Below are positions 36,839 to 55,164 of a stretch of DNA of 64,000 bases, piece after piece. Both the position numbers and the translations under genes were made by a program. Position 1 is the stretch's first letter. Every line of letters starts with the position of its first letter. The notes under the pieces are model-generated. The model was not told where the DNA came from. It saw only the letters and a program-made list of their open reading frames with translations, and did no database searches. The DNA is from Sphingobacteriia bacterium (GTDB lineage: Bacteria > Bacteroidota > Bacteroidia > NS11-12g > UBA955): NCBI GenBank assembly GCA_021151535.1, contig JAGKXC010000004.1, positions 25,513 to 89,512 of the forward strand. Reading direction: 5' to 3'.

Positions 36839-39800
36839 TTATCTCAACAATGTAACTGTACCCCTAAACTCTAATTTCTTCATATCCTTAGAGTAAAGTT
36901 GAATGTAATAAGTATAAACTCCTTCTTGACAGATTGCACCATTGGCCTTGCCATCCCATCCAGTATTTAAATCAGAAGTTTCATATAATTTTTCACCCCA
37001 GCGGTTAAAAATTATCATACTACCCTTTTCAAAGTTTTGGGCAGTGGGTTTAAAGCTGTTATTAATCGCTGGACCAACTTCATCTGGAGTAAATACGTTT
37101 GGAATGTAGATAATAATATCTGGACCTATTTTCACCCATTTAGATATAGTATCAGAACAACCATGGTTACTCGTTACTAATAAACTGATTTTGTAAGATG
37201 CGGTATCTTTACCGTATGCATATTTAGGATCTCGCAATGTAGATGTATCAGAACCAGTTCCATCACCAAAATTCCAATTATATTTTAAAATAGGATTAAA
37301 TGGATTTTGCTCAATGGTAGTTTGATTGATAATTCTAAATCTCGGAAGTGCAACTGTTGTGTAATAAGCAGGATCAGTAGAGAAATATGCCTTTGGTATT
37401 GGATAAGCTTCTACATTGTTTACCCCATAAACCTTGGTTTCACAACTACCAGAACTGTTTACTGCTTTTAACATCATGCTATATTTGCCCTGAGTGCTGT
37501 AGATAATTCCAGTTGGGTTTTGTAAATTAGATGTATCCCCATTCCCAAAATCCCAGAAATACTTCACTTGTGATGCAGGTAACCCAGACTTGTCGTTAGC
37601 TGTCCAATTCGTTGTTAAAGGAATACATCCGGCAGCAGTAGGTAATGGATCTAAGACCGGATACAAATGTAAAAGAATGGTAATTGAATCTTTAGCTGGC
37701 GGACAAACATCATTTGTAATTGGTTGTGTAACTACCCTTAATACTACTTTTTGATTGATTGCATCTTGAGTACCATTGTCAAAATTTATATTTTCATTAT
37801 ATGGGTTATCTATGATACCATCAACAGAAGGATCTTTAGTCCAAAGAACCTTATTATTTACATATTTAGTTGTGCTTTGGATGGCAAATGGTGTTCCTAT
37901 ACAAGCTGACGCAGGTTTAGGCGTTGTAATTTGCAATTCAGGTTTATTCCTAACAAATACCTGATAGGTTTCAGTATCTGTACATCCGTTATTATCTGTT
38001 AATACGAATCTAAATCCATGCGGTCCTTCAACATTGTTGGTTGTACCTGGTAACCATTTACCTGAATATTATCGTACAATTCCATGGTATCCCAGTTTAC
38101 ACATACAGGGTTTGGAGAAATTACTTTAATTGTTGGTTCTGGTACAATCTTTACTTTTACGGTATCACATGTTCTGCAACCAGTGATTTGGTCTTCTACG
38201 CACAATCCAAACTTATAATCGCCTTGGTAAAAATCATCCGCTGGAGTTCCAAATTTGAATCTCCAATCTGGGGTTCCCATTGGGTTATTGTTCACCAAAA
38301 TTGCTGTTGGATCAATTCCACCTGGAGATTGTAATACAGTCCAATCTAACTTGATACCAATCTTTACCTTGGGTTTCGCTGTTACTTGGTCCATACTGAT
38401 TTCTCCCAAATCCTGACAGAAAGAAGAGTCTCTCAAGTCTACCATTGGGTTACCATTGATTCTTTGGATTACACTATCAATATTAATACAACCGTTGGTG
38501 TCTTTATACCAGCCATATATCTTTGCTTGGAAACTATTACCATTCTGCAAAGATGCATTTTGCAAGGCGGTGGTTTTGAAACGATGACGTGTTGTTGTTA
38601 CTGAATCAACCATATTAAACACACTTCCTGATGGAGCTGGGCTCACGGTTGATGGTTTTGAGTAAACGTTGTTAGGAGTTTTATTTTCAAAGCCCCAAAT
38701 TCTTACACCTGACTCTTTACCTCTGTTAAAGAAGCTATTTAATTCAATATCTCCATAAACATAACACTGTGATTTCAATGGTTTGGGATCCCACTTCACA
38801 AATGGCAAAGCATTTACACGAAGAACCATGGTGTCTCGGTCTTCACAGGTTACACCCCCTTGTGTTACTTTCGTATATAAATCATAGCTAAAGAACTGAG
38901 GTGCGCCGCCAGGAGCATTGGTATTGGTGGGCTTCACCGTGTAGGTAGCCGCCGAACCCAGTGTTTGATTCTTGGTAATATCCGTCCACTGATAAATGCC
39001 TGTTAATGTAGAAGGTCTGTGGGTAGCTGTTATGGTTGTAGATTTTTGATTACAAATTGCCAAATCCTTTCCTGCTAAACTTACCACTGTGTCATTCACA
39101 AACAATTCAACGGTATCCTTCTTCTTACATTGCCATTTCCGCTCCATTACCTCAACGATATACTTACCTTTCACATTCACTGTAATGGTTCGGGTAGTAT
39201 CGCCATTACTCCATTTGTATTTTACCGAATCTGCATTCTGCGCATCAAACGTAAAAGTTTGATAAGTACAAATTCTCTGATCCGGACCTAAACCAACAAC
39301 TGGCAGCGGTTTCACATAAATTGTTAATGTATCATAGAAAGCACAACCATCGCCATCTTTTACACGAACACGGATGGTAGAGTCCAATAGTAACTGAATG
39401 GCGCTTTACCATGTAGCACATTGGCATAAAGCGACATCAAAGTACCTTTACAAGCAAAAGTATCTTTTGAAGCCAAGGTAACTGTTGGCGGATCGGGGAT
39501 AATAACTGTGTCTCTATAAATTGTTGGACAGTTATCAGAGTTGTTTACAGTATGAACAATGATGTACTTACCACCTTTATAGAAGGTCATGGTATCGGTT
39601 TTTTTGGCACTGTAAAAAATTTCATTACTACCTAAACTATCTCTTACACTCCATCTAAATGAGGGAACTCCCTTAAATGTGGCTGAAACTGAAGCTGCCA
39701 TGGCGAATTTACCACATTTCAAAATGGTATATTTACGTTGGCTAAATGCTCTTGGATTAACCTTTACTTTAAAACCACGAATTGCGATAGAAGGTTTTGG

Positions 39801-41063
39801 ACAATGGTTATCCGAAACCCTTACAGAGAAAGAGTAAGCAACATCTGAAGCCATACCAATTCCCGGGGTCCATTCAAAATCGGCATAAGCTAATCGTTTT
39901 TGGTTCCAGGATGATTTTGCCGCTACAGTAAACTTAGCCCCTGGAATACCTTTATTCCAAGTAATAGTTGTTGTATCAGGGATAGTTTGGTAAGGAGTAA
40001 AAGTTTCGTCATCAGATTCAACTTTAAACTTCAAGGTTTCTCCCTCACAAACTTTATATGAATAAGGACCTAAAACCGTTGGAGCTTTATTGTATCCGCA
40101 ATCGTCTTTAACAATCAACTGCATATCCCGTCGGGTTTTACCTATCATAATCCATTTTTTACTTGCACTATCCTGACGCCATTCTGTGATCTGGATTACG
40201 GCAATACCCACCTCATCACATTTGGTTGGAGTAAAGATGATATCTCCATTACTGGTATCAAAATACAAACCACGAGGAGGGTTAGTTTTGGTATTTGGAC
40301 TACACTTAATCGAGGTAGGAGGAATACAATAAGGCGTCATGAAATAACGCTTATCAAAGGGTGATGAATAAGAAACTGAAGTATTGGGTATATTGCTTAT
40401 ACCTGACTCAAGTGAATATGAAAATGAATCATAATCTACAGTATCAATCGCACCATTATTAAAATAATAGGCCTGATTACAACACAAATAACCCAATGGT
40501 TCGTTTGCTAACTGTGGTGAAGAGTTACATTTATTGGTTGTCTTTTTGATATTACAGATGTTGATCATACAAGTACTGTAAAAGTCGTTACCCGCAGGAC
40601 CTGTAGTAATAGCACCGTTTCTACAGCACTGACCAATGTAAAATGTTACTTCACAACAGTTACTTTTATTTACAAAGTTGTTTAGTGGAGATTGTCCAAA
40701 ATCAACAGTTACTTCGTAAGTATGTTCTTCTACTCCTTCTCCAGTACTTCCTGTGTTTTGAGGCGTACAAGGTGAAGATGCGGTTGAACAACGAGGGGTT
40801 ACGTCCCTGATATTGGTTCTGGAAATTGACATGGAATAATTACCACAACCATTTCCACCATTGGTTCCACCAAAAACACCAAAAGTTGGTGAGTTAAAGG
40901 AGATACCTCTACAATCTCGATAGATCTTTGCTGTAATCTTGTACTTACCATTGCCTAAACACTTGTAAGACATATCCGCACCCATCATGTGAGATGCTGA
41001 AAGCTTTGAAAATGTGAGCATTGACAGAAACAAGATTGTCAATAACTGTAGTTTTTTCTTCAT
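36839..41063 (-). pseudogene. Giant (~1400 aa) T9SS type-B sorting-domain adhesin-like protein, split into three ORFs by two frameshifts
   Basis: ORF 39360..41063 has the signal peptide and the SHMMGADMSYKC...YRDC N-domain typical of gliding-motility CTD proteins. ORF 36839..37936 ends in the type-B CTD (IPNVFTPD..FKP..IIFNRWGEKLYET.D...GWDG...EGVY...VTLLR). My frame tracing shows open, protein-like continuation across both junctions. Confidence 0.75.
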
Positions 41064-42554: not shown

Positions 42555-43223
42555 TTATTGCCAACCCAATTTCCCTTTAAGTGGAACAAATTTACAATCG
42601 TTAAAAACCTCTGTTTTAGATTGATTTTCAGCCACTTTAGTAATTCTTAACATCTTTTGATCTTCCCTGTTTTCTCCAACGGGAATAATCAACCTACCTC
42701 CTACTTTCAATTGCTGAATTAGTGTTTCAGGGACACTTGGAGCTCCAGCCGTAACAATAATTACTTCATATGGAGCAAAATTGGGCAAACCCAAAGATCC
42801 ATCGCCATGAAATAATGAAATATTGTATTCAATTAATTGAAATAAATGAGATGTTTGCTGTAGAATTGGTAAAATATATTCAACACTAAAAACTCGAGCA
42901 CCTAATTTGTGCAATACAGCTGCCTGATAGCCACTTCCCGTGCCAATTTCCAATACTCTATCACCTGCACTAACACCAGAAAGTTGCGTTTGGTAAGCAA
43001 CAGTAAATGGTTGCGAGATAGTCTGACCATGATCAATTGGAAAAGCGGCATCACGGTAAACAAATTGATCAAAGTCTCTTGGAAAAAACCATTGCCTAGG
43101 AATTTCATTCATCGCAGAAAGCACTAATTCCGAGGTAATTCCTTTTTTTCTTAATTCTTCAATCAGTCTTTTTCTTTGACCTTGTTGAACCAAAGTGTCT
43201 ACTAAATCTATCTTTCGAATCAT
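42555..43223 (-). CDS. pcm: Protein-L-isoaspartate O-methyltransferase
   Basis: GQTISQPF and VLEIGTGSGYQAAVL motifs. Start at MIRKIDL. Confidence 0.9.
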   Translation of the reverse strand: MIRKIDLVDTLVQQGQRKRLIEELRKKGITSELVLSAMNEIPRQWFFPRDFDQFVYRDAAFPIDHGQTISQPFTVAYQTQLSGVSAGDRVLEIGTGSGYQAAVLHKLGARVFSVEYILPILQQTSHLFQLIEYNISLFHGDGSLGLPNFAPYEVIIVTAGAPSVPETLIQQLKVGGRLIIPVGENREDQKMLRITKVAENQSKTEVFNDCKFVPLKGKLGWQ

Positions 43224-43291
43224 GTGTTTACAAACAAAATAATATGCAAGGGTAAGTTTTACCAATTTTGCATCGACTACAAAAGTAAGAC

Positions 43292-44266
43292 ATGCAGAAG
43301 TCGATTGTCATAGGTTCAAAAAGAAAATCGGAAATTTTCGAGCACTTGCTAATTTCATTTCCCGATATGCAGTTGGTTGGATATATTGATCCTGACGACG
43401 CGCATAATTTTTCAATGCTCGGAGAATTTATCATGGCACTTGATTTTGGGAAAAAAGCAGATGTGTTCTTCATAGACAGAAGTGTAAATAATTTACCCTA
43501 TAATTTTATTGCCAATTTGGTAAAATTGGGAAAACATTTATTTTTCGATGGCTATGTAAATTGGGAATCCGGAAGTTGGTCTGAAATCGCCAAATATGCT
43601 TCAGAATCTGGTTCAATTATTCATTTCGGTCATACGCTATACAACAAACCCCTATTTACTTCTGCCATCCACTTGGTTAAGAGACCCAGATTGATAAAAA
43701 TTGAAAAATATTGTTTGGCTCCTAAATCTGGAGAGTTTTCTATGTGGTTATTCAATCACCTATTCCAAGAAATAGATTTGGTTCTTAGGGTCATGAATAA
43801 TCCAATCCGCAGTATTCATGCCAGACCCATGTTTTTATTTGGTACGCAAACAGATTTGCTTAATATTCAAATTGAATTCGCTAATGATGCTGTAGCCGTA
43901 GTAAATTTAGGCAGGGCGATTGAACCTAACACACACAATTTTCAAATTTATCAGCAAGATAAATTGTTTTCAATTGATTTTCAGCAGAATCAACTTTTCG
44001 AATTTAGGGCGGCTAATAATCTTCAGCAATTAACCTTGGCAGAAGAATTGGATTTAGAATCACCTGATGACTCATTGCATTCAAATTTAGTAAAAATTGA
44101 AAGAACAATTATGTTATTTGATGTTTGGAAAATGGAATTGAGAAACTTCATTGAAAACATTGAAAAGAACCTAACGCCAATGAGTCATATCGACCATGTT
44201 CAAAATACTGCCGAAGTTTGCGAACAAATAATTGAGAAAATACAGCGTAAATACCAAGAAGTTTAA
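43292..44266 (+). CDS. Hypothetical protein, possibly a degenerate Gfo/Idh/MocA-like fold without the GxGxxG motif
   Basis: Only a loose architectural resemblance. The N-terminus IVIGSKRKSE sits where the dinucleotide loop would be. Confidence 0.3.
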   Translation: MQKSIVIGSKRKSEIFEHLLISFPDMQLVGYIDPDDAHNFSMLGEFIMALDFGKKADVFFIDRSVNNLPYNFIANLVKLGKHLFFDGYVNWESGSWSEIAKYASESGSIIHFGHTLYNKPLFTSAIHLVKRPRLIKIEKYCLAPKSGEFSMWLFNHLFQEIDLVLRVMNNPIRSIHARPMFLFGTQTDLLNIQIEFANDAVAVVNLGRAIEPNTHNFQIYQQDKLFSIDFQQNQLFEFRAANNLQQLTLAEELDLESPDDSLHSNLVKIERTIMLFDVWKMELRNFIENIEKNLTPMSHIDHVQNTAEVCEQIIEKIQRKYQEV

Positions 44267-44290
44267 CAAGTTATTGGTTATTTTCGCAAT

Positions 44291-45193
44291 GTGAGGCAAT
44301 TAACCAACAACTATTTTTACCTTATAGTTACATCTACTATCATCGGATTATTGGGTTGTAAATCCTCTTCTACCGATGTACCTGCCTACTTAGATATTGA
44401 TAGTGTTAGTGTTGTATCGCATTCTGGCCAAGGTAATAATATCCATCAAATCACTGCTGTTCAAATTTACGCCAACGCTGAGTATTTGGGATTATTTGAA
44501 CTTCCATGTAAAGTACCTGTATTAAAATCAGGTGCTATTAAAATTGAATGTTATCCTTACGTAAAACTGAATGGGAAGAACAATCAATGGGCTCCCTATC
44601 GTATTTTAAAAACTTCCGATACAATCCTTAATTTCAACCCACAAAAACACAGTTCTTATAACCCAACTTTCAAATTTAGAACTGAAACCTATTTCCGGTT
44701 AGAAGAAGATTTTTCTGATGGTAATTCTAAATTGATTCCAATACCTAAACTTACATTAGGCGATACCATGGGTGTGGAAGAACGTCCGTTTGATTTATCC
44801 GATAGATTTAAATCAGCCAACAATAAAGTATTTGTTGCAAAATTTGAGAATACGGATACAGCAAAATATATGGACATTGCCACATTTGATTCTTATTTTG
44901 GAATTCCTGTAGATGGCAGAAGTATTCAATTAGAATATGATATTAATTGTGACTTACCTGTTCAATTGTCATTGGTAAGGACAATAAATGGTGTTCCTGA
45001 ATTGGTGCCATTTCTTTATATGAACGCTACAGGAAAAAAATGGAAAAGATTCTATGTGGATATTTCGCCCGAAATTGCAGGATTTGACCCAGGTCTTTCC
45101 ATTCAACTTGTCTTTAGTATCAACAAACCATCTGGTTTTATCAACAACAGGGAAATATTAATTGATAATCTGCGTTTGAGTTACCTGAATTAA
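44291..45193 (+). CDS. Hypothetical lipoprotein
   Basis: GTG start and lipobox LLGCKSS. No recognisable domain. Its stop abuts the next gene's ATG. Confidence 0.5.
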   Translation: MRQLTNNYFYLIVTSTIIGLLGCKSSSTDVPAYLDIDSVSVVSHSGQGNNIHQITAVQIYANAEYLGLFELPCKVPVLKSGAIKIECYPYVKLNGKNNQWAPYRILKTSDTILNFNPQKHSSYNPTFKFRTETYFRLEEDFSDGNSKLIPIPKLTLGDTMGVEERPFDLSDRFKSANNKVFVAKFENTDTAKYMDIATFDSYFGIPVDGRSIQLEYDINCDLPVQLSLVRTINGVPELVPFLYMNATGKKWKRFYVDISPEIAGFDPGLSIQLVFSINKPSGFINNREILIDNLRLSYLN

Positions 45194-46612
45194 ATGAATA
45201 AATTTCGTCAAAGGGCACTACACCTAGCAGCAGACTGGATCGCAGCAACAATAAGTTGGTTGGGACTATTCTTTTTTAGAAAGAATTTTATTGAAGCTTC
45301 TAAACATGGTTATGAAATCCCGGTAAATCAAGACAATAACTTATATTTGGGTCTGTTATTAATTCCCATATTTTGGATTTGTTTGTATGCCATAACAGGC
45401 TATTATAAATATATATTCAGAAGATCCAGATTAAAGGAATTTCAATTTACTTTTAATCAATCTATAATTGGTGTAACATTTTTATTTTTCACCTTAATTA
45501 TTGATGATAGCATTTCGAGTTATAGAGATTATTATCTTTCGGTGGGTGTATTATTTGGATTCCATTTCTCAAGTACCTTACTATTTCGCCTAATTGTTGC
45601 CACCCAAACGATCCATAAGATAAAAAATCGTGTTTGGGGATATCCAACAGTAATCGTTGGATGTGGCCCTAAAGCACTTGAACTTTATCAAGAACTAAAA
45701 AATCAAAAGAAATCAGAGGGCTTTTTCATTGTGGGATTTGTGCAAATTGAAGAGAATTGTTTAACTGAATTTCAGAACCAATTACCTCTTCTGGGTTCTT
45801 GGAAAGATTTACCTCAACTAATTGCTAAATATAAAATAGAAGATATCATATTATGTTCGGAGCACTCGGAAAACCCAATTATTACCCAAGTAATTGATAG
45901 TGTTCAAAATGAAGATATTCATTTGAAAATTATTCCAGATCAATTTAGCTTGGTTTATGGAATGGTGAAAATGAATAATATTTTAGGAACTATGTTGGTT
46001 GAAGTTGATTTTGAAGTTATGCCAGTTTGGCAAAAGATTGTAAAACGTGGGATCGACATTATGGTTTCTCTCATAGCATTGATTTTACTACTGCCAGTTT
46101 TTGCCATAATCGCAATAGCCATTAAAATTGATAGTAATGGACCAATAATTTTCCATCAAGAAAGAATTGGTTTAAAAGGAAAACCATTTCAAATATTGAA
46201 GTTCAGGAGCATGAAAATGGATGCCGAAGCAACCGGCACACCAAAATTAAGTCATGACCAAGACGATCGAAGAACCAAAATTGGTATCCTACTTCGAAGA
46301 ACTCGCTTAGACGAATTACCTCAGTTTTTTAATGTATTAATTGGACAAATGAGTCTGGTTGGACCTCGTCCAGAACGTCAATTCTTTATCAATCAAATTG
46401 TTGCCTCTGCCCCACTCTATAAAAGATTGCATAGAATTAAACCCGGAATTACATCTTGGGGTCAAATCAAATACGGATATGCAACCAATGTAAATGAAAT
46501 GATAGACAGAATGAAATACGATATTTTGTACTTAGAGAATATGTCGTTAGGCCTTGACTTCAAAATCATGCTGTATACTGCCTTGATTATGATCCAGGGA
46601 AGAGGAAAGTGA
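45194..46612 (+). CDS. Polyprenyl-phosphate glycosyl-1-phosphate transferase (WbaP/EpsB-type bacterial sugar transferase)
   Basis: Four to five N-terminal TM helices and a central Rossmann-like region. C-terminal DELPQFFNVLIGQMSLVGPRPE and KPGITSWGQI motifs. Confidence 0.85.
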   Translation: MNKFRQRALHLAADWIAATISWLGLFFFRKNFIEASKHGYEIPVNQDNNLYLGLLLIPIFWICLYAITGYYKYIFRRSRLKEFQFTFNQSIIGVTFLFFTLIIDDSISSYRDYYLSVGVLFGFHFSSTLLFRLIVATQTIHKIKNRVWGYPTVIVGCGPKALELYQELKNQKKSEGFFIVGFVQIEENCLTEFQNQLPLLGSWKDLPQLIAKYKIEDIILCSEHSENPIITQVIDSVQNEDIHLKIIPDQFSLVYGMVKMNNILGTMLVEVDFEVMPVWQKIVKRGIDIMVSLIALILLLPVFAIIAIAIKIDSNGPIIFHQERIGLKGKPFQILKFRSMKMDAEATGTPKLSHDQDDRRTKIGILLRRTRLDELPQFFNVLIGQMSLVGPRPERQFFINQIVASAPLYKRLHRIKPGITSWGQIKYGYATNVNEMIDRMKYDILYLENMSLGLDFKIMLYTALIMIQGRGK

Positions 46613-46681
46613 ACTTTTCTTCGACTAAATTGTTTCTAAACAGTTTAGTGTGGTTATGTTTTATTGTAATTTTACCTCGTT

Positions 46682-47644
46682 ATGAGCGTTTCTCCTATGT
46701 CTGCCATTTGGCGATTAGTTAGTATTGAAAAAAAGAACATTCATTACTTGTATACCTATGCAATTATTGCGGGTTTAATGAGTTTAACAATTCCATTGGG
46801 AATTCAAGCATTAATTGGTGCAGTAATGGTTGGAAAGTTAAGCAGTAGTTGGTTTATTTTAGTTACAGGAATAACATTATTAGCCGCAGTTGCAGGATTA
46901 ACCAGGTTGGCCCAACTTTCCATTTTGGATGCAATTCAACGAAAATTATTCGTGCGATTTTCCCTGCATTTTGCCAAGAAATTATTTGCAAAAAGCAAAC
47001 ACGATCAAGGATCGATGAATGCCATGTTGAAATCTTCTCGTTTTCTAGATATCGTTACATTGCAAAAGAGTTTTTCCAAATTGATATTGGATTTCACTAG
47101 TAAAGCTTTACAAATTGTTGCAGGATTAGCGCTTTTAGCCGTATATCATTCTTCATTTATTATTCTGGCGATTGTTATCGCAATCATTATTTATATTGGT
47201 TTTAAACTTACTTGGACGAAAGGTTTTGAAACTGCCCGACAAGAAAGTAATTACAAATTCTCCACGGCCGATACCATTCAATCAATCGTTTCTAATAATG
47301 AAATTCAAACTGAGGATGACCTAATCAATGTTTTAGAGCCTCATTTAGATGGTTATGTAGGCAATAGAAATGCGCATTTCGCCATATTAAAAAAACAAGC
47401 ACTCTTTGCTATTATCACAAAAATCATTCTTACAGCAGCCATGTTAATTATTGGCAGTAATTTATTGATTGAACAGCAAATATCTCTAGGTCAATTTCTT
47501 GCTGCTGAAATCTTAATAATCACGCTTTTAGATGCAGTTGAAAAACTAATATTAACCGTTGAATACATCTATGATTGTGGAATTGCCATTGAGAAATTAC
47601 AGATTTTTTCTAATTCAAAATCTCTAAAAGAATTGGAGGCTTAA
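46682..47644 (+). CDS. ABC-exporter-type transmembrane domain protein with no nucleotide-binding domain
   Basis: Six TM helices arranged as in type-I ABC exporter membrane domains (HlyB/bacteriocin exporter-like). Ends ...IEKLQIFSNSKSLKELEA at the position of the TMD-NBD linker. Confidence 0.6.
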   Translation: MSVSPMSAIWRLVSIEKKNIHYLYTYAIIAGLMSLTIPLGIQALIGAVMVGKLSSSWFILVTGITLLAAVAGLTRLAQLSILDAIQRKLFVRFSLHFAKKLFAKSKHDQGSMNAMLKSSRFLDIVTLQKSFSKLILDFTSKALQIVAGLALLAVYHSSFIILAIVIAIIIYIGFKLTWTKGFETARQESNYKFSTADTIQSIVSNNEIQTEDDLINVLEPHLDGYVGNRNAHFAILKKQALFAIITKIILTAAMLIIGSNLLIEQQISLGQFLAAEILIITLLDAVEKLILTVEYIYDCGIAIEKLQIFSNSKSLKELEA

Positions 47645-47645
47645 C

Positions 47646-48965
47646 ATGAATCAAGAATTACTAACAAAAAAAGAGAATTTCTGGTTAAAAAACAGTGATT
47701 GGGTTGGCCGAAAAGTTAGAACTAGAATTATTTTAGCCTGTTTTCTTCTTGCGATATTTCTGTTTTTGCCGTGGACACAGAATATCCAAACAACAGGAAT
47801 TGCTACTACACTCTTACCAAGTGAACAACCGCAGGAAATTCAAACTGTAATAGCGGGCCGAATTACGAGATGGAACATAAAAGATGGTGATTTCGTTAAA
47901 AAGGGTGATACTATTTGCGTATTGGATGAAGTGAAAAGTGAATACTTAAATCCAGATTTACTATCACAAACAGACATTCAGATACAAGCCAAAGAACAAT
48001 CTGTATTGAGTTATAATTCTAAAATCTCTGCCATAAACGACCAGATAAAGCAATTGGAGTCTGTAAGAGATTTAAGTTTCAAAAAAACGGTTAATAAAAT
48101 TGAACAAGAACAACTGAAATTAAATGCAGAAATCGCTGAATTAACTGCTGCGTCCAAAAATGCAGAAATCGCCAAAAAACAATTCGAAAGGGATAGTATT
48201 TTAGGGCTAGAAAAACTAAGAAGTTCAATTGAAGTAGAAAACAGAAGATTAAAATGGCAAGAAGCCATAGCCAAACTATATTCTGCAGAGGCAAAAGTAA
48301 AAATTGCTAAAGCGAGCTTGGAAAATGCCAAAATTGAATTACAAAATATTCGCTCTGAATATGGTGAGAAACTTTCAAAAACTGAAAGCGAAAGATATTC
48401 AGCTATTTCAGCTCAATTAGAAACAGAGGCCGAAGTGAGTAAATTAAGAAACTCATATTCTAATTACGCAATTCGAGCAGGTTTTTACTTCATTCTCGCT
48501 CCCCAATCAGGAATAATTTCCAAAACATTAGTAAAAGGCATTGGCGAGACAGTGAAAGAAGGAGATGCAATTTGTACCATCGTTCCAGATGGTGCTTCTA
48601 TGGCTGTGGCTATGAATGTAAAGCCTGTTGACTTGCCATTATTCTCGAAAAATTTGCATGTGCAATTTGTTTTTGATGGTTGGCCAACAATAGTTTTCTC
48701 CGGTTGGCCACAAACCAGTTATGGTACATTCCCTGGAGAGATCTATGCAATAGATAACAATATCAACGAAAAAGGAGAATATCGCGTTTTGGTTAGACCC
48801 GCTAAAGGAGAAAAACCATGGCCCGATCAATTAAAGGTTGGTGTTGGTGCAAGAGGTTATGTATTGTTAAAAACAGTACCTGTGTGGTATGAAATTTGGC
48901 GGCAATTAAATGGTTTTCCACCTGATTTTTACAAGTTCGCTAACACAGAAAAAAAGAAAAAATAA
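47646..48965 (+). CDS. HlyD-family membrane fusion (periplasmic adaptor) protein
   Basis: N-terminal TM anchor, lipoyl-like hairpin (GRITRWNIKDGDFVKKGDTICVLD), long coiled-coil and a beta-barrel C-domain. Confidence 0.8.
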   Translation: MNQELLTKKENFWLKNSDWVGRKVRTRIILACFLLAIFLFLPWTQNIQTTGIATTLLPSEQPQEIQTVIAGRITRWNIKDGDFVKKGDTICVLDEVKSEYLNPDLLSQTDIQIQAKEQSVLSYNSKISAINDQIKQLESVRDLSFKKTVNKIEQEQLKLNAEIAELTAASKNAEIAKKQFERDSILGLEKLRSSIEVENRRLKWQEAIAKLYSAEAKVKIAKASLENAKIELQNIRSEYGEKLSKTESERYSAISAQLETEAEVSKLRNSYSNYAIRAGFYFILAPQSGIISKTLVKGIGETVKEGDAICTIVPDGASMAVAMNVKPVDLPLFSKNLHVQFVFDGWPTIVFSGWPQTSYGTFPGEIYAIDNNINEKGEYRVLVRPAKGEKPWPDQLKVGVGARGYVLLKTVPVWYEIWRQLNGFPPDFYKFANTEKKKK

Positions 48966-48972
48966 ATCGACC

Positions 48973-50427
48973 ATGCGATTATTTCAAAAAATCTGCCTTT
49001 TCACTGTTTTAGCAATTTCATTGCCATTGGGAGCTATGGGAAGATCTTCTACCAAACATACCCTTGTGGATCATGATTCCGCATTAATTGAGTATTCATT
49101 ATTCGATTTTATTAATCAAATAATAAAATACCATCCATTAATAAAATCTGCTGGTTTAGAACAAGATATTGGGCGAATAAGTATTTTAAAAGCAAGGGGT
49201 AATTTCGACCCTCAAATTCAATTTAATCAGTTGCAAAAATCCTATAATGGTACTCAATACTTTAACCTTCAAAATTTACAAATCAACAATTCAACACGAG
49301 TAGGTGCAAAATTTATTGGAGGAACTGAATATGCAACAGGAAACTATGTGGATCCGATGAATTATGTGGGTACAAATGGATTAAATTATATTGGAGCAGA
49401 ATTACCACTATTACGTGATTTGATGATTGATAAAAAACGAGCAGATCTTCAAAAATCTCGTATTTATGCTCAAACTTCGATAGCAGAAAGAATAATTCTT
49501 GAAAATCAAATTATTTATTCTGCCATTGATTTATATACTGATTGGTTGTTGAATTATGAAAGTGCAAAATGTGTTTCTGAAATTGTTGCCAATGCAGAAA
49601 AACGCAAAAATGCTCTATTAATGCTCTACAATCATGGTGCTGCAACCTCAATTGATACACTTGAAACGCATGTTCAACTCAATCAATACAAAGCAAAATT
49701 GACTGAATTAAACTGGAAGATAAAGAAATCCCAAATTTTATTAAATTCATTTCTCTGGATAGACAATTTCTATCCTGTGGAATTGGACACCATGGTAATA
49801 CCCACTTTCAATAATTTGGATATTATTGATTCGTTGGTTATCAACTGGAAAAGAGAAACCAATTGGCAGTATCAAGATGAATTTCATACATTTCGCACAC
49901 CTCCAAGTTTGGTATATTACCAAAATAAAGTTTTAATTAATGAAATTCAGAAAAAACTAACCCAAAACAATCTCCTACCTGAGTTAAGTATCAAATATCA
50001 ATACTTACAACCATTGAATGAAATGAATTTCAACAAATTCAATTTCAACAACAATAAATTTGGTATTCAATTTAGCGCTCCATTAATTAGATCTTCCATT
50101 GCCGATTATAAAATCGCCCAATTCCAAAAACAACAAAGTGAACTGGAATTCTTAAGCAAACGCAGGGAGTTAATTCAAAAATCAAATGCGTATTTCCAGG
50201 AAATAGAAATTGCAAAAAAACTACAAAAACAATGGTATTCCATTGCTTCAGAAACCCAATTATTATATCAAATGGAGATGAAAAGATTGGAAGCTGGCGA
50301 TGTCAATTTCTTCATAATTAATACCCGTGAAACCCGTGCTTTGGATCAAAAATTGAAGTCAATAGAGGCACAAATTGTAACCTACAAAAGATCCAACGAC
50401 TTATTATCTCTTTTGGGCTATAATTGA
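48973..50427 (+). CDS. TolC-family outer-membrane efflux protein
   Basis: Signal peptide MRLFQKICLFTVLAISLPLGAMG. Two-repeat helical/beta layout typical of OEP proteins. Confidence 0.7.
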   Translation: MRLFQKICLFTVLAISLPLGAMGRSSTKHTLVDHDSALIEYSLFDFINQIIKYHPLIKSAGLEQDIGRISILKARGNFDPQIQFNQLQKSYNGTQYFNLQNLQINNSTRVGAKFIGGTEYATGNYVDPMNYVGTNGLNYIGAELPLLRDLMIDKKRADLQKSRIYAQTSIAERIILENQIIYSAIDLYTDWLLNYESAKCVSEIVANAEKRKNALLMLYNHGAATSIDTLETHVQLNQYKAKLTELNWKIKKSQILLNSFLWIDNFYPVELDTMVIPTFNNLDIIDSLVINWKRETNWQYQDEFHTFRTPPSLVYYQNKVLINEIQKKLTQNNLLPELSIKYQYLQPLNEMNFNKFNFNNNKFGIQFSAPLIRSSIADYKIAQFQKQQSELEFLSKRRELIQKSNAYFQEIEIAKKLQKQWYSIASETQLLYQMEMKRLEAGDVNFFIINTRETRALDQKLKSIEAQIVTYKRSNDLLSLLGYN

Positions 50428-50456
50428 TATTGAAACTCTTAGCTGAAAGTTGCTAA

Positions 50457-52496
<2,040 letters not shown>

Positions 52497-52517: not shown

Positions 52518-53810
52518 TTATTGATAACGAATGGCCCTGATTGGGGCCATTTTTTTTATCCATTGGATCGGTAACAATCCAGATACCATCGCCAGGATCA
52601 ATAAACCCAAATCAATCAATATTACGGCATACCATGAAATTTGTAATTCAACCGTTTTCAGGAAATAAATTGATTGATTTAATTCAATTATTTTAAATTG
52701 ATTTTGAACAAAAACTAAACCCAAGCCCAAAATGTCACCCAAAAGTATTCCCCACAGTAATATGAAACTGCCTTGCCATAAGAATACCTTCTGAATAGAT
52801 ATAATCTTTCCACCCATCGCTTGCAGTAAACCGATCACAGAAATTTTTTCAAAAATCAAAATCAACAAAATTGTTATTACTGCAATTACGGCCACCACAG
52901 CCATCAAAATGATAATAATCCAAACATTGGTATTTAAAATGGATAACCAGTCGTATATCTGGCGATGATATTGACTTGAAGTATTCAAACGCAAATAACC
53001 TGCGGGAATAACAGATTGTGCTAATTCCTTTCCAACTTCTAAGGTTTGACTGGGATCTGTCCAAATTTCAATTTTAGTATATTTCGTTCCAGTTGGTAAA
53101 AATGGAGCGATGAGATCGTTAGCAACATACACAGAATTTTCGTCTACAAAATCAATCCCTGTTTCAAATATCCCTTTAATTTGCAATCGTTTAGGGCGTG
53201 GTTTAGCACCATAATTTTCATCAGATTCAAAAAACACCAATGTAAGCCACTCTCCTATTTTAACCTTTAATTTCTCTGCCTGTAATCGAGAAATATAAAT
53301 CCATTTTCCGGTTTTTTTAATACCCGCATTAGACGAATCTGTTACAATTTCAGAAATTGAATCTTGAGTATTTTCGGCTGCTATTTCAACCATAAAATCC
53401 TTAAAAGATCTTAAAAACTCCTCACTATTCATTCCATTGGCAACTACCCCATCTAACTCATTTTCTGATTTCATAATACAAGCCTTGGAATTTATCATTT
53501 GAACAGCCGTTACTCCTTTAATACTGCTCAAAACTTCATCCAAATTTTTACCAGTTGGCAAATGATTCGAAAATGGCCTAGGTTCAGCACTTTCCGTATT
53601 TCCGGCATCGTCAATAATAAAATCCCCATGCAACTTCACAACCTTGGATTTTATTCCATTTTGGAATCCTTTTACCGACGAAACGGTAATAATCATTACA
53701 GAAACACTCAGCGCAACGGCGGAAATCGCCAAAATCATCATATTTTTGGAAAAAGATTGACTTCCTGCCCGGAGCAATCGAAATGCCATTAACCTTTCCC
53801 AACGATTCAT
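52518..53810 (-). CDS. FtsX/LolE-family ABC transporter permease
   Basis: N-terminal TM, MacB-like periplasmic domain and a C-terminal FtsX-type three-TM bundle. The track's N-terminal extension overlaps the divergent gene. Start taken at MNRWERLMAFRLL (or M at 53786). Confidence 0.7.
   Translation of the reverse strand: MNRWERLMAFRLLRAGSQSFSKNMMILAISAVALSVSVMIITVSSVKGFQNGIKSKVVKLHGDFIIDDAGNTESAEPRPFSNHLPTGKNLDEVLSSIKGVTAVQMINSKACIMKSENELDGVVANGMNSEEFLRSFKDFMVEIAAENTQDSISEIVTDSSNAGIKKTGKWIYISRLQAEKLKVKIGEWLTLVFFESDENYGAKPRPKRLQIKGIFETGIDFVDENSVYVANDLIAPFLPTGTKYTKIEIWTDPSQTLEVGKELAQSVIPAGYLRLNTSSQYHRQIYDWLSILNTNVWIIIILMAVVAVIAVITILLILIFEKISVIGLLQAMGGKIISIQKVFLWQGSFILLWGILLGDILGLGLVFVQNQFKIIELNQSIYFLKTVELQISWYAVILIDLGLLILAMVSGLLPIQWIKKMAPIRAIRYQ
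52531..52558 (+). terminator. Rho-independent terminator after gyrB (lies inside the 3' end of the convergent permease gene)
   Basis: ATGGCCC-(6 nt loop)-GGGCCAT followed by T8. Confidence 0.6.
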
Positions 53811-55164
53811 GAAGTTCAAATTTACTATTCCCATTGCATTAAATACAGCATACCAAAGAATATTCTTTCTGCCGTTCCTAAATAGAAGTGTATTGCTTTT
53901 CGGAGCGGTTACCATTTTATTATCAATAATGGGATTATTCCAAATACAAAACACATTTAACAATCCAGCTCCTACAAATAGTCCAATTCCCCTTGCCAAT
54001 TCAGCTAATTCTAAGACTTTTAATGTAGGCGCTGAAAGATTTTCTGAATATCTATGGCGATTAAAGAATAAACGTGTAATGATTGTTGCCAATCAAACTT
54101 CTATGGTTGGCAATCAACATTTAGTAGACACCTTATTAACCCTAGGCATTAAGATTGTTGGGGTATTTGCTCCTGAACATGGGTTTCGGGGCGATGCGGC
54201 CAATGGTGAACATATTCAAAATCAAACTGATACCAAAACAGGGCTACCCATTTATTCTTTATATGGTAAAAATTATAAACCCAGTAAAGAACAACTAGCA
54301 CAAACCGATATCATAATTTTTGACATTCAAGATGTTGGAGCAAGGTTTTACACCTATTTAAGCACCTTACATTTTGTTATGCAAGCTTGTGCGGAACATA
54401 AAAAGCAAATAATTGTTCTAGATAGACCCAATCCCAACGGATATTTCATAGATGGTCCTATGTTAGAACCTGAAAATGTTTCTATGGTTGGCATTCACCC
54501 AATCCCATTGATTCATGGTATGACATTGGGAGAAATGGCTTATATGATCATAGGTGAAAAATGGTTAAACATCATGTTGCCCATTAAATCCAAAGAAAAG
54601 GTTGCACCCATTCAGATTGACTATTCAGGGATAAACCTGGTAGTTGTACCATGTGCTAATTGGATTAGAGAAAATGGATATAATCTACCTATTCCCCCAT
54701 CGCCAAATTTACCAAACCAAAACGCTATTTTGCTTTACCCTACTTTGGGCCTTCTGGAAGGAACGGTAATGAGTATGGGCAGAGGAACAAATCATCCCTT
54801 TGAATGTTTTGGTGCACCGTGGCTAAAACAAGGGAATTACCAATTTACACCAGAAAACATACCAGGAAAGGCTATAAATCCGCCTTATTTGGGGAAAATC
54901 TGTAGAGGTGTTCTTCTTGAAGATTTCGGTACTGGTTATTTGCGCAGTTATAAACAACTTTATGTTGAATGGTTAATAATGTTAAAGAAGGAATGTCCCG
55001 ATAGTATAACATTTTTTAATCCATTCTTTACAAAATTGGCAGGTACTAAAAAATTCCAAAAGATGATTGAACAAGGAAAATCTGCACAAGAGATTAGAAG
55101 TTCGTGGCTACCAGAAATTTCAGCTTTTGAAGCAAAGCGTAAGAAATACTTACTTTATCCTTAA
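53809..55164 (+). CDS. DUF1343-family protein (exo-beta-N-acetylmuramidase NamZ-like)
   Basis: VMIVANQTSMVG...GVFAPEHGFRGD...IIFDIQDVGARFYTY...LDRPNP are hallmark DUF1343 motifs. The exact start is uncertain. Confidence 0.75.
   Translation: MKFKFTIPIALNTAYQRIFFLPFLNRSVLLFGAVTILLSIMGLFQIQNTFNNPAPTNSPIPLANSANSKTFNVGAERFSEYLWRLKNKRVMIVANQTSMVGNQHLVDTLLTLGIKIVGVFAPEHGFRGDAANGEHIQNQTDTKTGLPIYSLYGKNYKPSKEQLAQTDIIIFDIQDVGARFYTYLSTLHFVMQACAEHKKQIIVLDRPNPNGYFIDGPMLEPENVSMVGIHPIPLIHGMTLGEMAYMIIGEKWLNIMLPIKSKEKVAPIQIDYSGINLVVVPCANWIRENGYNLPIPPSPNLPNQNAILLYPTLGLLEGTVMSMGRGTNHPFECFGAPWLKQGNYQFTPENIPGKAINPPYLGKICRGVLLEDFGTGYLRSYKQLYVEWLIMLKKECPDSITFFNPFFTKLAGTKKFQKMIEQGKSAQEIRSSWLPEISAFEAKRKKYLLYP

What the first reader, a model, noticed from the sequence alone, without database searches (positions are those of the whole stretch)
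43292..50427. Tripartite exporter whose ABC component has no ATPase domain, fused in an operon with a WbaP-type sugar transferase
Six co-directional genes are separated by only 24, 0, 69, 1 and 7 nt.
- The 320-aa product of 46682..47644 has the six-helix layout of a type-I ABC exporter membrane domain.
- That product ends (…IEKLQIFSNSKSLKELEA) exactly where the Walker-A nucleotide-binding domain normally begins.
- A HlyD-family adaptor starts 1 nt after its stop, and a TolC-family barrel follows.
- I found no ABC NBD (Walker A plus LSGGQ) in any frame of the cluster or elsewhere in the 64 kb.
- Upstream in the same transcriptional unit are a polyprenyl-phosphate sugar transferase, an unannotatable lipoprotein, and a protein resembling a cofactor-less Gfo/Idh/MocA fold.

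A T1SS-like envelope-spanning assembly without its motor, coupled to a glycan-initiating enzyme, is not an architecture I know to be described. It could be a glycolipid or polysaccharide export route energised differently, or in trans.
Basis: partly seen in the sequence, partly recalled or inferred. Interest (0 to 1): 0.72.

Follow-up and report, generated by a model that had tools for sequence, protein, structure and literature searches.

The report
ABC-derived efflux pump without its ATPase
A conserved three-part envelope-spanning export machine in freshwater Bacteroidota keeps the membrane half of an ABC transporter but has lost the ATP motor, so it probably runs without ATP.

Summary
The product of 46682-47644 is a six-helix ABC-exporter membrane domain that stops at the linker to the ATPase domain (NBD). 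A HlyD adaptor starts 1 nt later, then a TolC protein. No NBD is encoded anywhere in the 64 kb.

It is not a recent truncation.
- 44 species representatives carry the same NBD-less gene in the same locus.
- They form one clade.
- dN/dS is 0.014-0.067.

Sister species have a full-length gene in the same slot, but its NBD is degenerate:
- Walker A Lys is Arg.
- LSGGQ is absent.
- The catalytic Glu and the H-loop His are lost.

In the wider family (about 1,100 clusters), none of 141 full-length representatives keeps a complete catalytic motif set. The NBD was lost independently at least four times, including forms where the membrane domain is fused to HlyD. The NBD-docking loop has decayed in NBD-less lineages. 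A Glu in TM6 is near-invariant.

Best reading: an ATP-independent, probably proton-coupled, tripartite efflux module. This parallels SbmA, but is new for HlyD/TolC systems.

The link to the sugar transferase is not supported as functional. It is lineage-specific synteny. The ancestral module had its own TetR gene, and most relatives have a promoter box upstream of it.

The parts
43292..44266 (+). g1: 324-aa divergent Gfo/Idh/MocA-like protein without the GxGxxG dinucleotide motif. It is a neighbour, probably not part of the export module.
   Evidence: It has no Pfam or NCBIfam hit of its own. A profile of 28 orthologues hits PDB 7bvj 'Oxidoreductase, NAD-binding' at E = 2e-9 over residues 69-238. 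A few orthologues give weak GFO_IDH_MocA(_C3) hits.
44291..45193 (+). g2: 300-aa predicted lipoprotein of unknown family (lipobox LLGC). It is a neighbour.
   Evidence: The ORF and translation are. It matches no Pfam or NCBIfam family. It is conserved in the syntenic lineage only.
45194..46612 (+). g3: large polyprenyl-phosphate glycosyl-1-phosphate transferase. It belongs to the generic EPS_sugtrans class and is not specifically WbaP.
   Evidence: PF02397 Bac_transf E = 7.5e-63. TIGR03025 scores 394.7 bits against a cut-off of 295.6. WbaP TIGR03022 scores 236.5 bits against a cut-off of 403.
46613..46681 (+). 69-nt gap upstream of the membrane-domain gene. It holds 'TAAATTG' (46626-46632) where relatives have the -7 box TAnnTTTG. 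It also holds the inverted repeat ACTAAA/TTTAGT (46624-46629 / 46644-46649).
   Evidence: Sequence read. About 40 of 48 NBD-less loci have an exact TAnnTTTG 11-18 nt (45 nt in one subclade) after the transferase stop codon. The sigma-70 and terminator scans were uninformative.
46682..47644 (+). g4: 320-aa NBD-less type-IV ABC-exporter membrane domain. It is the inner-membrane component of the module.
   Evidence: Supported. dN/dS is 0.014-0.067 in unsaturated orthologue pairs. All NBD-less sequences of this lineage form one clade.
47270..47353 (+). Codons for residues ~197-224, the ICL2 / coupling-helix-2 region. It is decayed relative to the full-length sister clade.
   Evidence: The motif 'WltEIAqNrvtFnLk' is conserved in full-length relatives. 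In the NBD-less clade it is replaced by an 8-residue deletion and unconserved sequence. A 6-residue deletion lies at the same place in the fusion clade. Relative entropy is 1.80 against 1.24 and 1.30.
47507..47509 (+). Codon of Glu276 in TM6 (motif LGQFLAAEI). It is a near-invariant carboxylate in the hydrophobic stretch of TM6 and a candidate proton-coupling site.
   Evidence: Invariant in 26 NBD-less orthologues. Present in 137 of 141 full-length family representatives. It aligns with Asn in ComA. The membrane depth and functional role are inferred.
47646..48965 (+). g5: 439-aa HlyD-family periplasmic adaptor. It has an N-terminal TM helix followed by the motif LPWTQN.
   Evidence: Biotin_lipoyl_2 and HlyD_3 hits. 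TIGR01843 type_I_hlyD scores 82.5 bits, below its cut-off. The same adaptor is fused to the membrane domain in L085-L088 and in P0269-P0363.
48973..50427 (+). g6: TolC-family outer-membrane factor, 484 aa from the ATG at 48973.
   Evidence: PF02321 OEP E = 1.6e-24 with two repeats. It follows HlyD in every related locus.

Best explanation
**What it is.** Genes 46682-50427 encode a functional tripartite envelope-spanning efflux module. Its inner-membrane component is a homo-oligomeric ABC-exporter membrane domain that works with no nucleotide-binding domain.

**Shown.**
- The ancestor was a TetR-regulated ABC-HlyD-TolC pump whose NBD had already lost the residues needed for ATP hydrolysis.
- In the window's lineage TetR was lost, and then the whole NBD was deleted once.
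- The remaining membrane-domain, HlyD and TolC genes have since been kept under strong purifying selection across at least 44 species.

**Inferred.**
- The membrane domain still alternates access.
- It hands a small hydrophobic or amphipathic substrate to the HlyD/TolC duct.
- It is driven by the proton-motive force, most likely through the near-invariant Glu276 in TM6. This would be analogous to SbmA/SLiPT, which derive from ABC transporters that lost their NBDs.

**Neighbours.** The upstream genes for the sugar transferase, the lipoprotein and the Gfo-like protein are syntenic neighbours. They are probably not part of the machine.
For: **Fold and boundaries.**

**No NBD nearby.**
- None in the window.
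- None within 10 kb on either side of any NBD-less locus.

**Same syntenic slot holds three states**:
- TetR plus a full-length gene.
- A full-length gene without TetR.
- The membrane domain only.

**Single ancient loss.** NBD-less sequences form one clade in the membrane-domain tree and in an independent gyrB + transferase tree.

**Purifying selection.**
- dN/dS is 0.014, 0.046, 0.067 and 0.034, similar to HlyD and the transferase.
- 57 columns are invariant among orthologues that are about 50% identical.
- Within the clade, gyrB identity goes down to 81% while the membrane domain keeps a median of 52%.

**Degenerate NBDs.**
- In the sister clade: GxGRT, 'VPNNI', 'LIDDIW', and H-loop His replaced by Asn.
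- PF00005 scores only 20-57 bits.
- Family census of 141 representatives: Walker A in 70, SGG signature in 3-7, Walker B DE in 16-28, all motifs together in 0.

**Recurrent NBD loss.**
- P0152/L090 and P0216/L091 are membrane-domain-only genes followed by overlapping downstream genes: a HlyD-like adaptor and a TolC in L090; an ORF cut by the contig end and not annotated in L091.
- There are two groups of membrane domain-HlyD fusions.
- Each NBD-less group is closer to full-length sequences than to the other NBD-less groups.

**Other support.**
- Coupling-helix-2 has decayed in the two NBD-less lineages examined (the window's clade and the L085-L088 fusion clade).
- The TM6 Glu is conserved.
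- Precedent for ABC-to-secondary-transporter conversion: PMC13316013.
Against: - There is no experimental data. Energisation by protons rests on one conserved carboxylate and on analogy.
- Whole genomes could not be scanned, so an orphan ATPase elsewhere cannot be excluded.
- Half of the family keeps an intact Walker A. Nucleotide binding, though not hydrolysis, may therefore still matter in full-length members.
- The substrate is unknown.
- The window and its closest relative lack the exact -7 box. Read-through from the transferase gene remains possible there.
Confidence: 0.6

Rival explanations
1. The pump is still ATP-driven. A separately encoded NBD elsewhere in the genome docks on the membrane domain in trans (a split ABC exporter).
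For: - Split membrane-domain and NBD architectures exist in other ABC classes (general knowledge).
- Whole genomes of the NBD-less species could not be scanned.
- ICL1 and the cytoplasmic helix extensions ('FLDIVTLQKS', 'EKLILTVExxYD') remain conserved.
Against: - No NBD-like ORF lies within 10 kb on either side in about 45 NBD-less loci or anywhere in the 64-kb window.
- The fused NBD of the sister clade was already catalytically degenerate. It lacks signature, catalytic Glu and H-loop His, so no composite site could be active with any partner.
- The coupling-helix-2 region is deleted or unconserved in the NBD-less clade and also in the independent fusion clade.
- In fusion proteins the C-terminus of TM6 runs through about 40 residues straight into the HlyD TM helix.
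Confidence: 0.12
2. The membrane domain no longer transports. It is a passive anchor, assembly platform or facilitated-diffusion gate for a HlyD-TolC exit duct, or has a non-transport envelope role, with no energy coupling at all.
For: - The ATPase motifs are lost and no alternative motor is evident.
- The 1:1 fusion to HlyD suggests a structural partnership.
- Outward diffusion of a cytoplasmically produced compound needs no energy (inference).
Against: - Conservation is strongest in the membrane-embedded and cavity-forming helices. TM1, TM3 and TM6 have relative entropy 0.53-0.68, with motifs PLGIQ, YHP and LGQFLAxEI. That is more than an anchor would need.
- The TetR control seen in basal forms is typical of inducible efflux pumps (family knowledge).
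- A conserved buried Glu is more typical of coupling than of scaffolding (inference).
Confidence: 0.15
3. One reading: the six genes form one operon, and the NBD-less conduit exports the glycolipid or polysaccharide initiated by the adjacent sugar transferase.
For: - The six genes are co-directional with short gaps.
- The arrangement g1-g2-g3-module is conserved in all 56 GTDB-representative loci of the lineage in which the transferase gene is visible.
- No convincing terminator lies between g3 and g4.
- The window lacks an exact -7 box in the gap.
Against: - The entire region, including housekeeping genes, is syntenic, so linkage is uninformative.
- A TetR gene separates the two blocks in basal members.
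- The module occurs without any transferase in all other lineages examined.
- A promoter box is conserved upstream of g4 in about 40 of 48 loci.
- Und-P-linked glycans are normally flipped by Wzx or ABC (Wzm/Wzt, PglK) systems, and no polymerase or flippase set is present here (family knowledge).
Confidence: 0.1
4. The NBD-less gene is a decaying remnant (pseudogene-like) of an ABC pump.
For: TetR and the NBD were lost, and the Pfam score is below threshold.
Against: - The reading frame is intact in 44 species representatives.
- dN/dS is at most 0.07.
- 57 columns are invariant.
- HlyD and TolC are retained intact.
- The same architecture arose independently several times.
Confidence: 0.02

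Closest known systems
Type 1 secretion / PCAT-type ABC exporters with HlyD and TolC (HlyB-HlyD-TolC, PrtD, ComA, PCAT1)
   Same: - Homologous six-helix type-IV membrane domain. These are the best sequence and structure matches.
- Same gene order of ABC, HlyD-family adaptor and TolC.
- The 1:1 membrane domain:HlyD ratio implied by the fusions fits the HlyB/HlyD complex (PDB 8dck appears among the fold hits; the stoichiometry is from my own knowledge).
   Different: - No NBD, and no C39 or C39-like domain.
- Relatives that keep an NBD lack LSGGQ, the catalytic Glu and the H-loop His.
- All scores are far below the curated family cut-offs, for example 90 bits against 510.
- No RTX or double-glycine substrate gene is nearby.
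- TetR control suggests small-molecule efflux.
SbmA/BacA (SLiPT family), proton-driven transporters with an ABC type-IV-like membrane domain
   Same: Both are ABC-derived membrane domains that lost the NBD and the coupling helix or helices. Conserved glutamates are proposed or shown to couple to protons (PMC13316013). This is the same evolutionary route.
   Different: - The origin is independent: PCAT/T1SS-like here, YddA-like for SbmA.
- Six helices here, not eight (no TM0).
- One conserved TM6 Glu here rather than a glutamate ladder.
- This module is partnered with HlyD and TolC, so it is presumably an exporter. SLiPTs are stand-alone importers.
- The window protein matches no Pfam family other than a sub-threshold ABC_membrane hit, so no SbmA_BacA model is matched.
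PMF-driven tripartite pumps with HlyD-type adaptors (EmrAB-TolC of the MFS; AaeAB and MdtNOP of the PET/FUSC family; RND pumps)
   Same: [quoted passage not shown]
   Different: The inner-membrane component here is not homologous to MFS, RND or PET proteins. It is an ABC-exporter membrane domain.
ABC proteins with degenerate nucleotide sites (TmrAB, TM287/288, CFTR, SUR)
   Same: They show loss of catalytic residues in an NBD while the protein stays functional.
   Different: Those proteins keep one consensus ATP site. Here both halves of each composite site are degenerate in a presumed homodimer, and the domain is finally deleted.

Membership tests
ABC transporter, type-IV (type-I exporter) half-transporter | Six-helix ABC_membrane domain with long cytoplasmic helix extensions | tested here: met
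   The AF2 model has six long helices and matches PCAT1, TmrAB, HlyB and PrtD at TM-score 0.7-0.84. NCBIfam and ComA alignments cover the whole membrane domain. PF00664 itself scores 20 bits, below its gathering score of 28.
ABC transporter, type-IV (type-I exporter) half-transporter | Nucleotide-binding domain with Walker A, signature LSGGQ, Walker B-Glu and H-loop, either fused or encoded alongside | tested here: not met
   The protein ends 15 residues after TM6's cytoplasmic helix. There is no NBD in any frame of the 64 kb, and none within 10 kb on either side of the orthologous loci.
Type 1 secretion system (HlyB/HlyD/TolC type) | HlyD-family membrane-fusion protein and TolC-family outer-membrane factor encoded with the ABC component | tested here: met
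   HlyD_3 and Biotin_lipoyl_2 hits, and OEP at 87 bits. TIGR01843 (82 bits against 209) and TIGR01844 (29 against 225) are below their cut-offs.
Type 1 secretion system (HlyB/HlyD/TolC type) | ATP-hydrolysing ABC component that passes T1SS permease/ATPase models | tested here: not met
   TIGR01842 scores 12 bits for the window protein. Even the full-length relatives score 90-194 bits against cut-offs of 510-725.
Type 1 secretion system (HlyB/HlyD/TolC type) | Cognate secreted substrate (RTX or C-terminal signal, or double-glycine leader peptide) nearby | not tested
   No obvious candidate lies among the annotated neighbours, but no dedicated search was made.
Peptidase-containing ABC transporters (PCAT) | N-terminal C39 peptidase domain | tested here: not met
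   The window protein starts about 15 residues before TM1 and has no Peptidase_C39 hit.
SbmA-like peptide transporters (SLiPT) | ABC-like membrane domain without an NBD | tested here: met
SbmA-like peptide transporters (SLiPT) | Eight TM helices including the TM0 pair; SbmA_BacA sequence family | tested here: not met
   The model has six helices. The nearest sequence relatives are PCAT/T1SS-type proteins, not SbmA/YddA.
SbmA-like peptide transporters (SLiPT) | Loss of coupling helices and a glutamate ladder for proton coupling | tested here: inconclusive
   ICL2 has decayed or is deleted, while ICL1 is variable in both clades. One near-invariant TM6 Glu exists, plus conserved cytoplasmic-extension acidic residues (E188, E287, E294, D298). 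There are no functional data.
WbaP-type polyprenyl-phosphate galactose-phosphate transferase (for g3) | Bac_transf catalytic domain with N-terminal TM and CoA_binding_3 region | tested here: met
   PF02397 E = 7.5e-63 and PF13727 E = 4e-8. TIGR03025 is above its cut-off.
WbaP-type polyprenyl-phosphate galactose-phosphate transferase (for g3) | Passes the WbaP subfamily model | tested here: not met
   TIGR03022 scores 236.5 bits against a cut-off of 403. WcaJ TIGR03023 scores 335.7 against 410.8. g3 is therefore a generic EPS-type transferase with unknown sugar specificity.

The most novel reading that the evidence does not exclude
A large Bacteroidota family of PCAT/T1SS-derived inner-membrane proteins has abandoned ATP hydrolysis altogether. 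The family holds about 1,100 clusters at 50% identity. Extant members span the whole path, from a degenerate NBD, to an NBD deleted at least four times, to a membrane domain fused to its HlyD adaptor. Together with HlyD and TolC they form a previously unrecognised class of tripartite efflux pump that is ATP-independent and probably proton-coupled. This would be a second, independent conversion of an ABC exporter into a secondary transporter, after SbmA/SLiPT.
Probability: 0.45. Interest if true: 0.85.

Novelty: new variant of a known kind. Interest (0 to 1): 0.78.

Why it matters
- **A new pump class.** Tripartite pumps are currently classed by their inner-membrane motor: ABC, RND, MFS or PET. 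An ABC-fold component with no ATPase would add a class.
- **A natural series of intermediates.** The family shows how a primary transporter becomes ATP-independent. The stages sit in one syntenic locus: catalytically dead NBD, then NBD deleted, then coupling helix decayed, then fusion to the adaptor.
- **Direct tests become possible.** One can ask what the type-IV membrane domain can do on its own, and how HlyD/TolC ducts are gated without ATP.
- **Annotation.** The genes are common in abundant freshwater Bacteroidota. They are currently labelled as 'ABC transporter ATP-binding protein' or 'bacteriocin exporter', which is misleading.

Tried and rejected
- **Sigma-70 and terminator scan of 43000-50700.** It found 34 promoter-like sites against 36 expected, and 6 terminator-like sites against 4 expected. 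It is uninformative for Bacteroidota.
- **Rfam scan of the window.** It found only two tRNAs and no regulatory RNA near the cluster.
- **tblastn for NBD remnants.** Six canonical and degenerate NBD queries found nothing. The best hit was a ClpX-like P-loop at E = 0.046.
- **Literature searches.** Searches for NBD-less ABC components with HlyD/TolC found only the SbmA/SLiPT precedent and general reviews.
- **Structure prediction of g1.** A profile-against-PDB search replaced it.
- **Possible shared lipoprotein neighbour.** I compared the 290-aa neighbour of the L087 fusion with g2. There was no similarity.
- **Short family representatives P0197, P0257 and P0267.** I treated them as fragments or frameshifted calls, not as evidence of NBD loss.
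- **'Recent truncation' and 'pseudogene' readings.** I considered both and rejected them on phylogeny and dN/dS.
- **C-terminal tail of the basal NBD-less subclade.** 'LDIWTL' resembles the full-length tail ('DITWQ', 'NIIWK'), which hints at an internal in-frame deletion. I could not show this is more than chance.

Full report
**1. The observation**

The six co-directional ORFs are present as described, with gaps of 24, 0, 69, 1 and 7 nt.

| Gene | Coordinates | Result |
|---|---|---|
| g3 | 45194-46612 | Large polyprenyl-phosphate glycosyl-phosphate transferase. Bac_transf E = 7.5e-63. TIGR03025 394.7 bits (cut-off 295.6). Below the WbaP cut-off. |
| g5 | 47646-48965 | HlyD-family adaptor |
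| g6 | 48973-50427 | TolC-family protein |
| g4 | 46682-47644 | 320-aa ABC-exporter membrane domain (see below) |

- g4 scores only 20 bits on Pfam ABC_membrane, below the gathering score.
- NCBIfam bacteriocin/T1SS ABC models align along its whole length, to model positions ~148-456 of ~700. That is the membrane domain alone.
- An AlphaFold2 model built on 26 orthologues (pLDDT 76) has six long helices.
- Its best PDB matches are the membrane domains of TAP, PCAT1, TmrAB, MsbA, PrtD and HlyB, at TM-score 0.7-0.84.
- A profile of the orthologues aligns to ComA residues 160-461.
- Against full-length relatives, the window protein stops 15 residues after the conserved 'GIAxEKL' helix that normally leads into the NBD.
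- A six-frame motif scan found no LSGGQ anywhere in the 64 kb. The only Walker A motifs in long ORFs are two unrelated ones; a third lies in a 46-aa stop-to-stop span.
- tblastn with six canonical and degenerate NBDs found nothing.

**2. Not a recent truncation**

A protein search found about 70 clusters of 315-339-aa NBD-less homologues at 43-93% identity. It also found 544-560-aa full-length relatives at 45-52% identity.

Contig look-ups show that both kinds sit in the same syntenic slot:

M24 peptidase / PCMT / g1 / g2 / g3 / [TetR] / ABC / HlyD / TolC / gyrB / FtsX / NamZ

A scan of GTDB species representatives returned 80 loci, nearly all uncultured Bacteroidota MAGs; those whose isolate names point to a habitat are mostly freshwater (lakes and rivers). 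Within the syntenic lineage there are three states:

| State | Loci |
|---|---|
| TetR + full-length ABC gene | 6 |
| Full-length ABC gene, no TetR | 10 |
| Membrane domain only, no TetR | 44 |

- No NBD-like ORF lies within 10 kb on either side of any NBD-less locus.
- All NBD-less sequences form one clade, sister to the full-length syntenic clade, in an NJ tree of the membrane domain.
- An independent gyrB + transferase tree gives the same split of genomes.
- One deletion followed by a radiation is the parsimonious history. Within the clade gyrB identity falls to 81%.

dN/dS of the NBD-less gene, for pairs where dS is not saturated, is 0.014, 0.046, 0.067 and 0.034. This is similar to HlyD and the transferase in the same pairs. 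For the window against its 90%-identical relative, dS is saturated and dN is 0.072. Fifty-seven alignment columns are invariant among orthologues that share about 50% identity. The gene is therefore functional.

**3. The ATPase was already dead before it was deleted**

In the full-length sister clade the NBD reads as follows:

| Motif | Canonical | Sister clade |
|---|---|---|
| Walker A | GxxGxGK[ST] | G-x-P-G-T-G-R-T (Lys to Arg) |
| Signature | LSGGQ | 'VPNNI' |
| Walker B | hhhhDE | 'LIDDIW' (catalytic Glu lost) |
| H-loop | His | Asn |

- More distant relatives vary. Walker A is intact in some and gone in Crocinitomicaceae-type sequences. All lack the signature and the H-loop His.
- Their PF00005 scores are only 20-57 bits.
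- None reaches any curated NCBIfam cut-off.
- An exhaustive profile search found 2,101 family representatives at 50% clustering. Of these, 1,105 have E <= 1e-30.

Among the 141 full-length sequences in the best 150:

| Feature | Count of 141 |
|---|---|
| Canonical Walker A | 70 |
| SGG signature | 3-7 |
| Walker B Asp-Glu | 16-28 |
| All motifs together | 0 |

Both halves of each composite ATP site are degenerate. No active site could therefore form, even with a canonical partner (inference).

In contrast, the membrane-domain motifs are near-invariant:
- PLGIQ in TM1.
- YHP at the TM3/TM4 turn.
- (L/I)GQF(V/L)AxEI in TM6. Its Glu is present in 137 of 141.

**4. NBD loss is recurrent, and the membrane domain is physically tied to HlyD**

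- L085-L088 encode 763-797-aa proteins. In them the membrane domain runs through a ~40-residue linker straight into the HlyD TM helix and the same 'LPWTQN' motif as the window's HlyD. A TolC gene follows.
- A search with one such fusion found dozens of full-coverage clusters from 100% down to 36% identity.
- The fusions fall into two groups that are only 27-29% identical in the membrane domain.
- One fusion group has a divergent TetR gene (L092).
- P0152 (L090) is a separate membrane-domain-only gene, overlapped by a downstream HlyD-like adaptor gene and followed by a TolC gene, in a different genomic context.
- P0216 (L091) is another membrane-domain-only gene, overlapped by a downstream ORF that is cut by the contig end and not annotated; I take it to be the adaptor gene.
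- Each NBD-less group is closer to some full-length sequence than to the other NBD-less groups.

This gives at least four independent losses.

**5. Against an ATPase supplied in trans**

- The ICL2 / coupling-helix-2 segment is conserved in both full-length groups ('WltEIAqNrvtFnLk...').
- In the window's clade it carries an 8-residue deletion and no conserved residues.
- The fusion clade has a 6-residue deletion at the same place.
- Relative entropy of this region is 1.80, against 1.24 and 1.30 in the full-length groups.
- SLiPT transporters also lost their coupling helices together with their NBDs (PMC13316013).

**6. Mechanism**

Shown:
- The module of membrane domain, HlyD and TolC is conserved and selected, and has no ATPase.
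- It descends from a TetR-controlled pump of the PCAT/T1SS lineage.

Inferred:
- It still exports a small hydrophobic or amphipathic compound into the HlyD/TolC duct.
- It is energised by the proton-motive force.
- Glu276 in TM6 (codon 47507-47509) is the candidate coupling residue. ComA has Asn at this position.

A purely passive or scaffold role, and an orphan ATPase, remain possible. A relic is excluded.

**7. The sugar-transferase link**

- Adjacency to g1-g3 is conserved only where the whole neighbourhood, including gyrB, is syntenic.
- Basal members have a TetR gene between g3 and the ABC gene, overlapping the latter.
- All other lineages lack the transferase.
- In about 40 of 48 NBD-less loci an exact Bacteroidota -7 box (TAnnTTTG) sits 11-18 nt (45 nt in one subclade) after the g3 stop codon.
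- The window and its nearest relative have 'TAAATTG' there, inside a conserved ACTAAA/TTTAGT inverted repeat.
- Co-transcription in this particular genome is undecided. A functional coupling is not supported.
- g1 is a divergent Gfo/Idh/MocA-type protein. Its profile hits PDB 7bvj at E = 2e-9.

**8. Comparison and novelty**

- By homology, the closest systems are T1SS/PCAT exporters.
- By evolutionary route, the closest is SbmA/SLiPT.
- By proposed function, the closest are the PMF-driven EmrAB, AaeAB and RND pumps.
- The window protein fails the defining NBD criterion for ABC transporters and T1SS.
- It fails the eight-helix and sequence-family criteria for SLiPT.
- I found no paper describing an NBD-less ABC membrane domain working with HlyD/TolC.

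I rate it a new variant of a known kind, with high interest.

Noticed in passing
window 36839-41063 (-): A large surface-protein gene is split over three reading frames in the window. In relatives it is one gene (product 1,567 aa in L003) with PKD and CHU_C (T9SS-type) domains. Breaks lie near 39381-39384 and 38041-38047, and two internal segments are missing. This may reflect frameshifts, pseudogenisation or an assembly error.
   Followed up: partly
window 46624-46649: The inverted-repeat arms ACTAAA / TTTAGT are conserved between the window and its 90%-identical relative L001, although the spacer differs. The repeat lies where other relatives carry the -7 box. It could be an operator or a weak hairpin.
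   Followed up: no
L085-L088; P0269-P0363; L092: Natural fusions of the NBD-less membrane domain to the HlyD adaptor (742-793 aa) are widespread. They fall into two divergent groups, one with a divergently transcribed TetR gene. Some sources annotate them only as 'multidrug resistance efflux pump' or 'membrane fusion protein'.
   Followed up: yes
L079, L080, L081; P0126, P0129 and other 690-757-aa family members: Many family members carry a 130-185-residue N-terminal extension before TM1. It gives no Peptidase_C39 Pfam hit and may be a degenerate C39-like domain.
   Followed up: no
window 43292-44266 (+): The orthologue profile of g1 matches the NAD-binding oxidoreductase PDB 7bvj at E = 2e-9 over residues 69-238. 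The N-terminus (IVIGSKRKS) lacks the GxGxxG dinucleotide-binding motif, and this lack is conserved across 28 orthologues.
   Followed up: partly
window 52518-54092 (-): The FtsX/LolE-like permease ORF is listed as 524 aa from the first TTG, but orthologues are 371-392 aa. The real start is probably downstream. Its partner ATPase is not in the window.
   Followed up: no
L008, L047, L052 (P0069-type, 339 aa): The basal NBD-less subclade ends in '...LDIWTL'. This resembles the extreme C-terminus of full-length relatives ('...DITWQ', '...NIIWK'). It hints that the NBD was removed by an internal in-frame deletion that kept the last codons overlapping the HlyD start.
   Followed up: no
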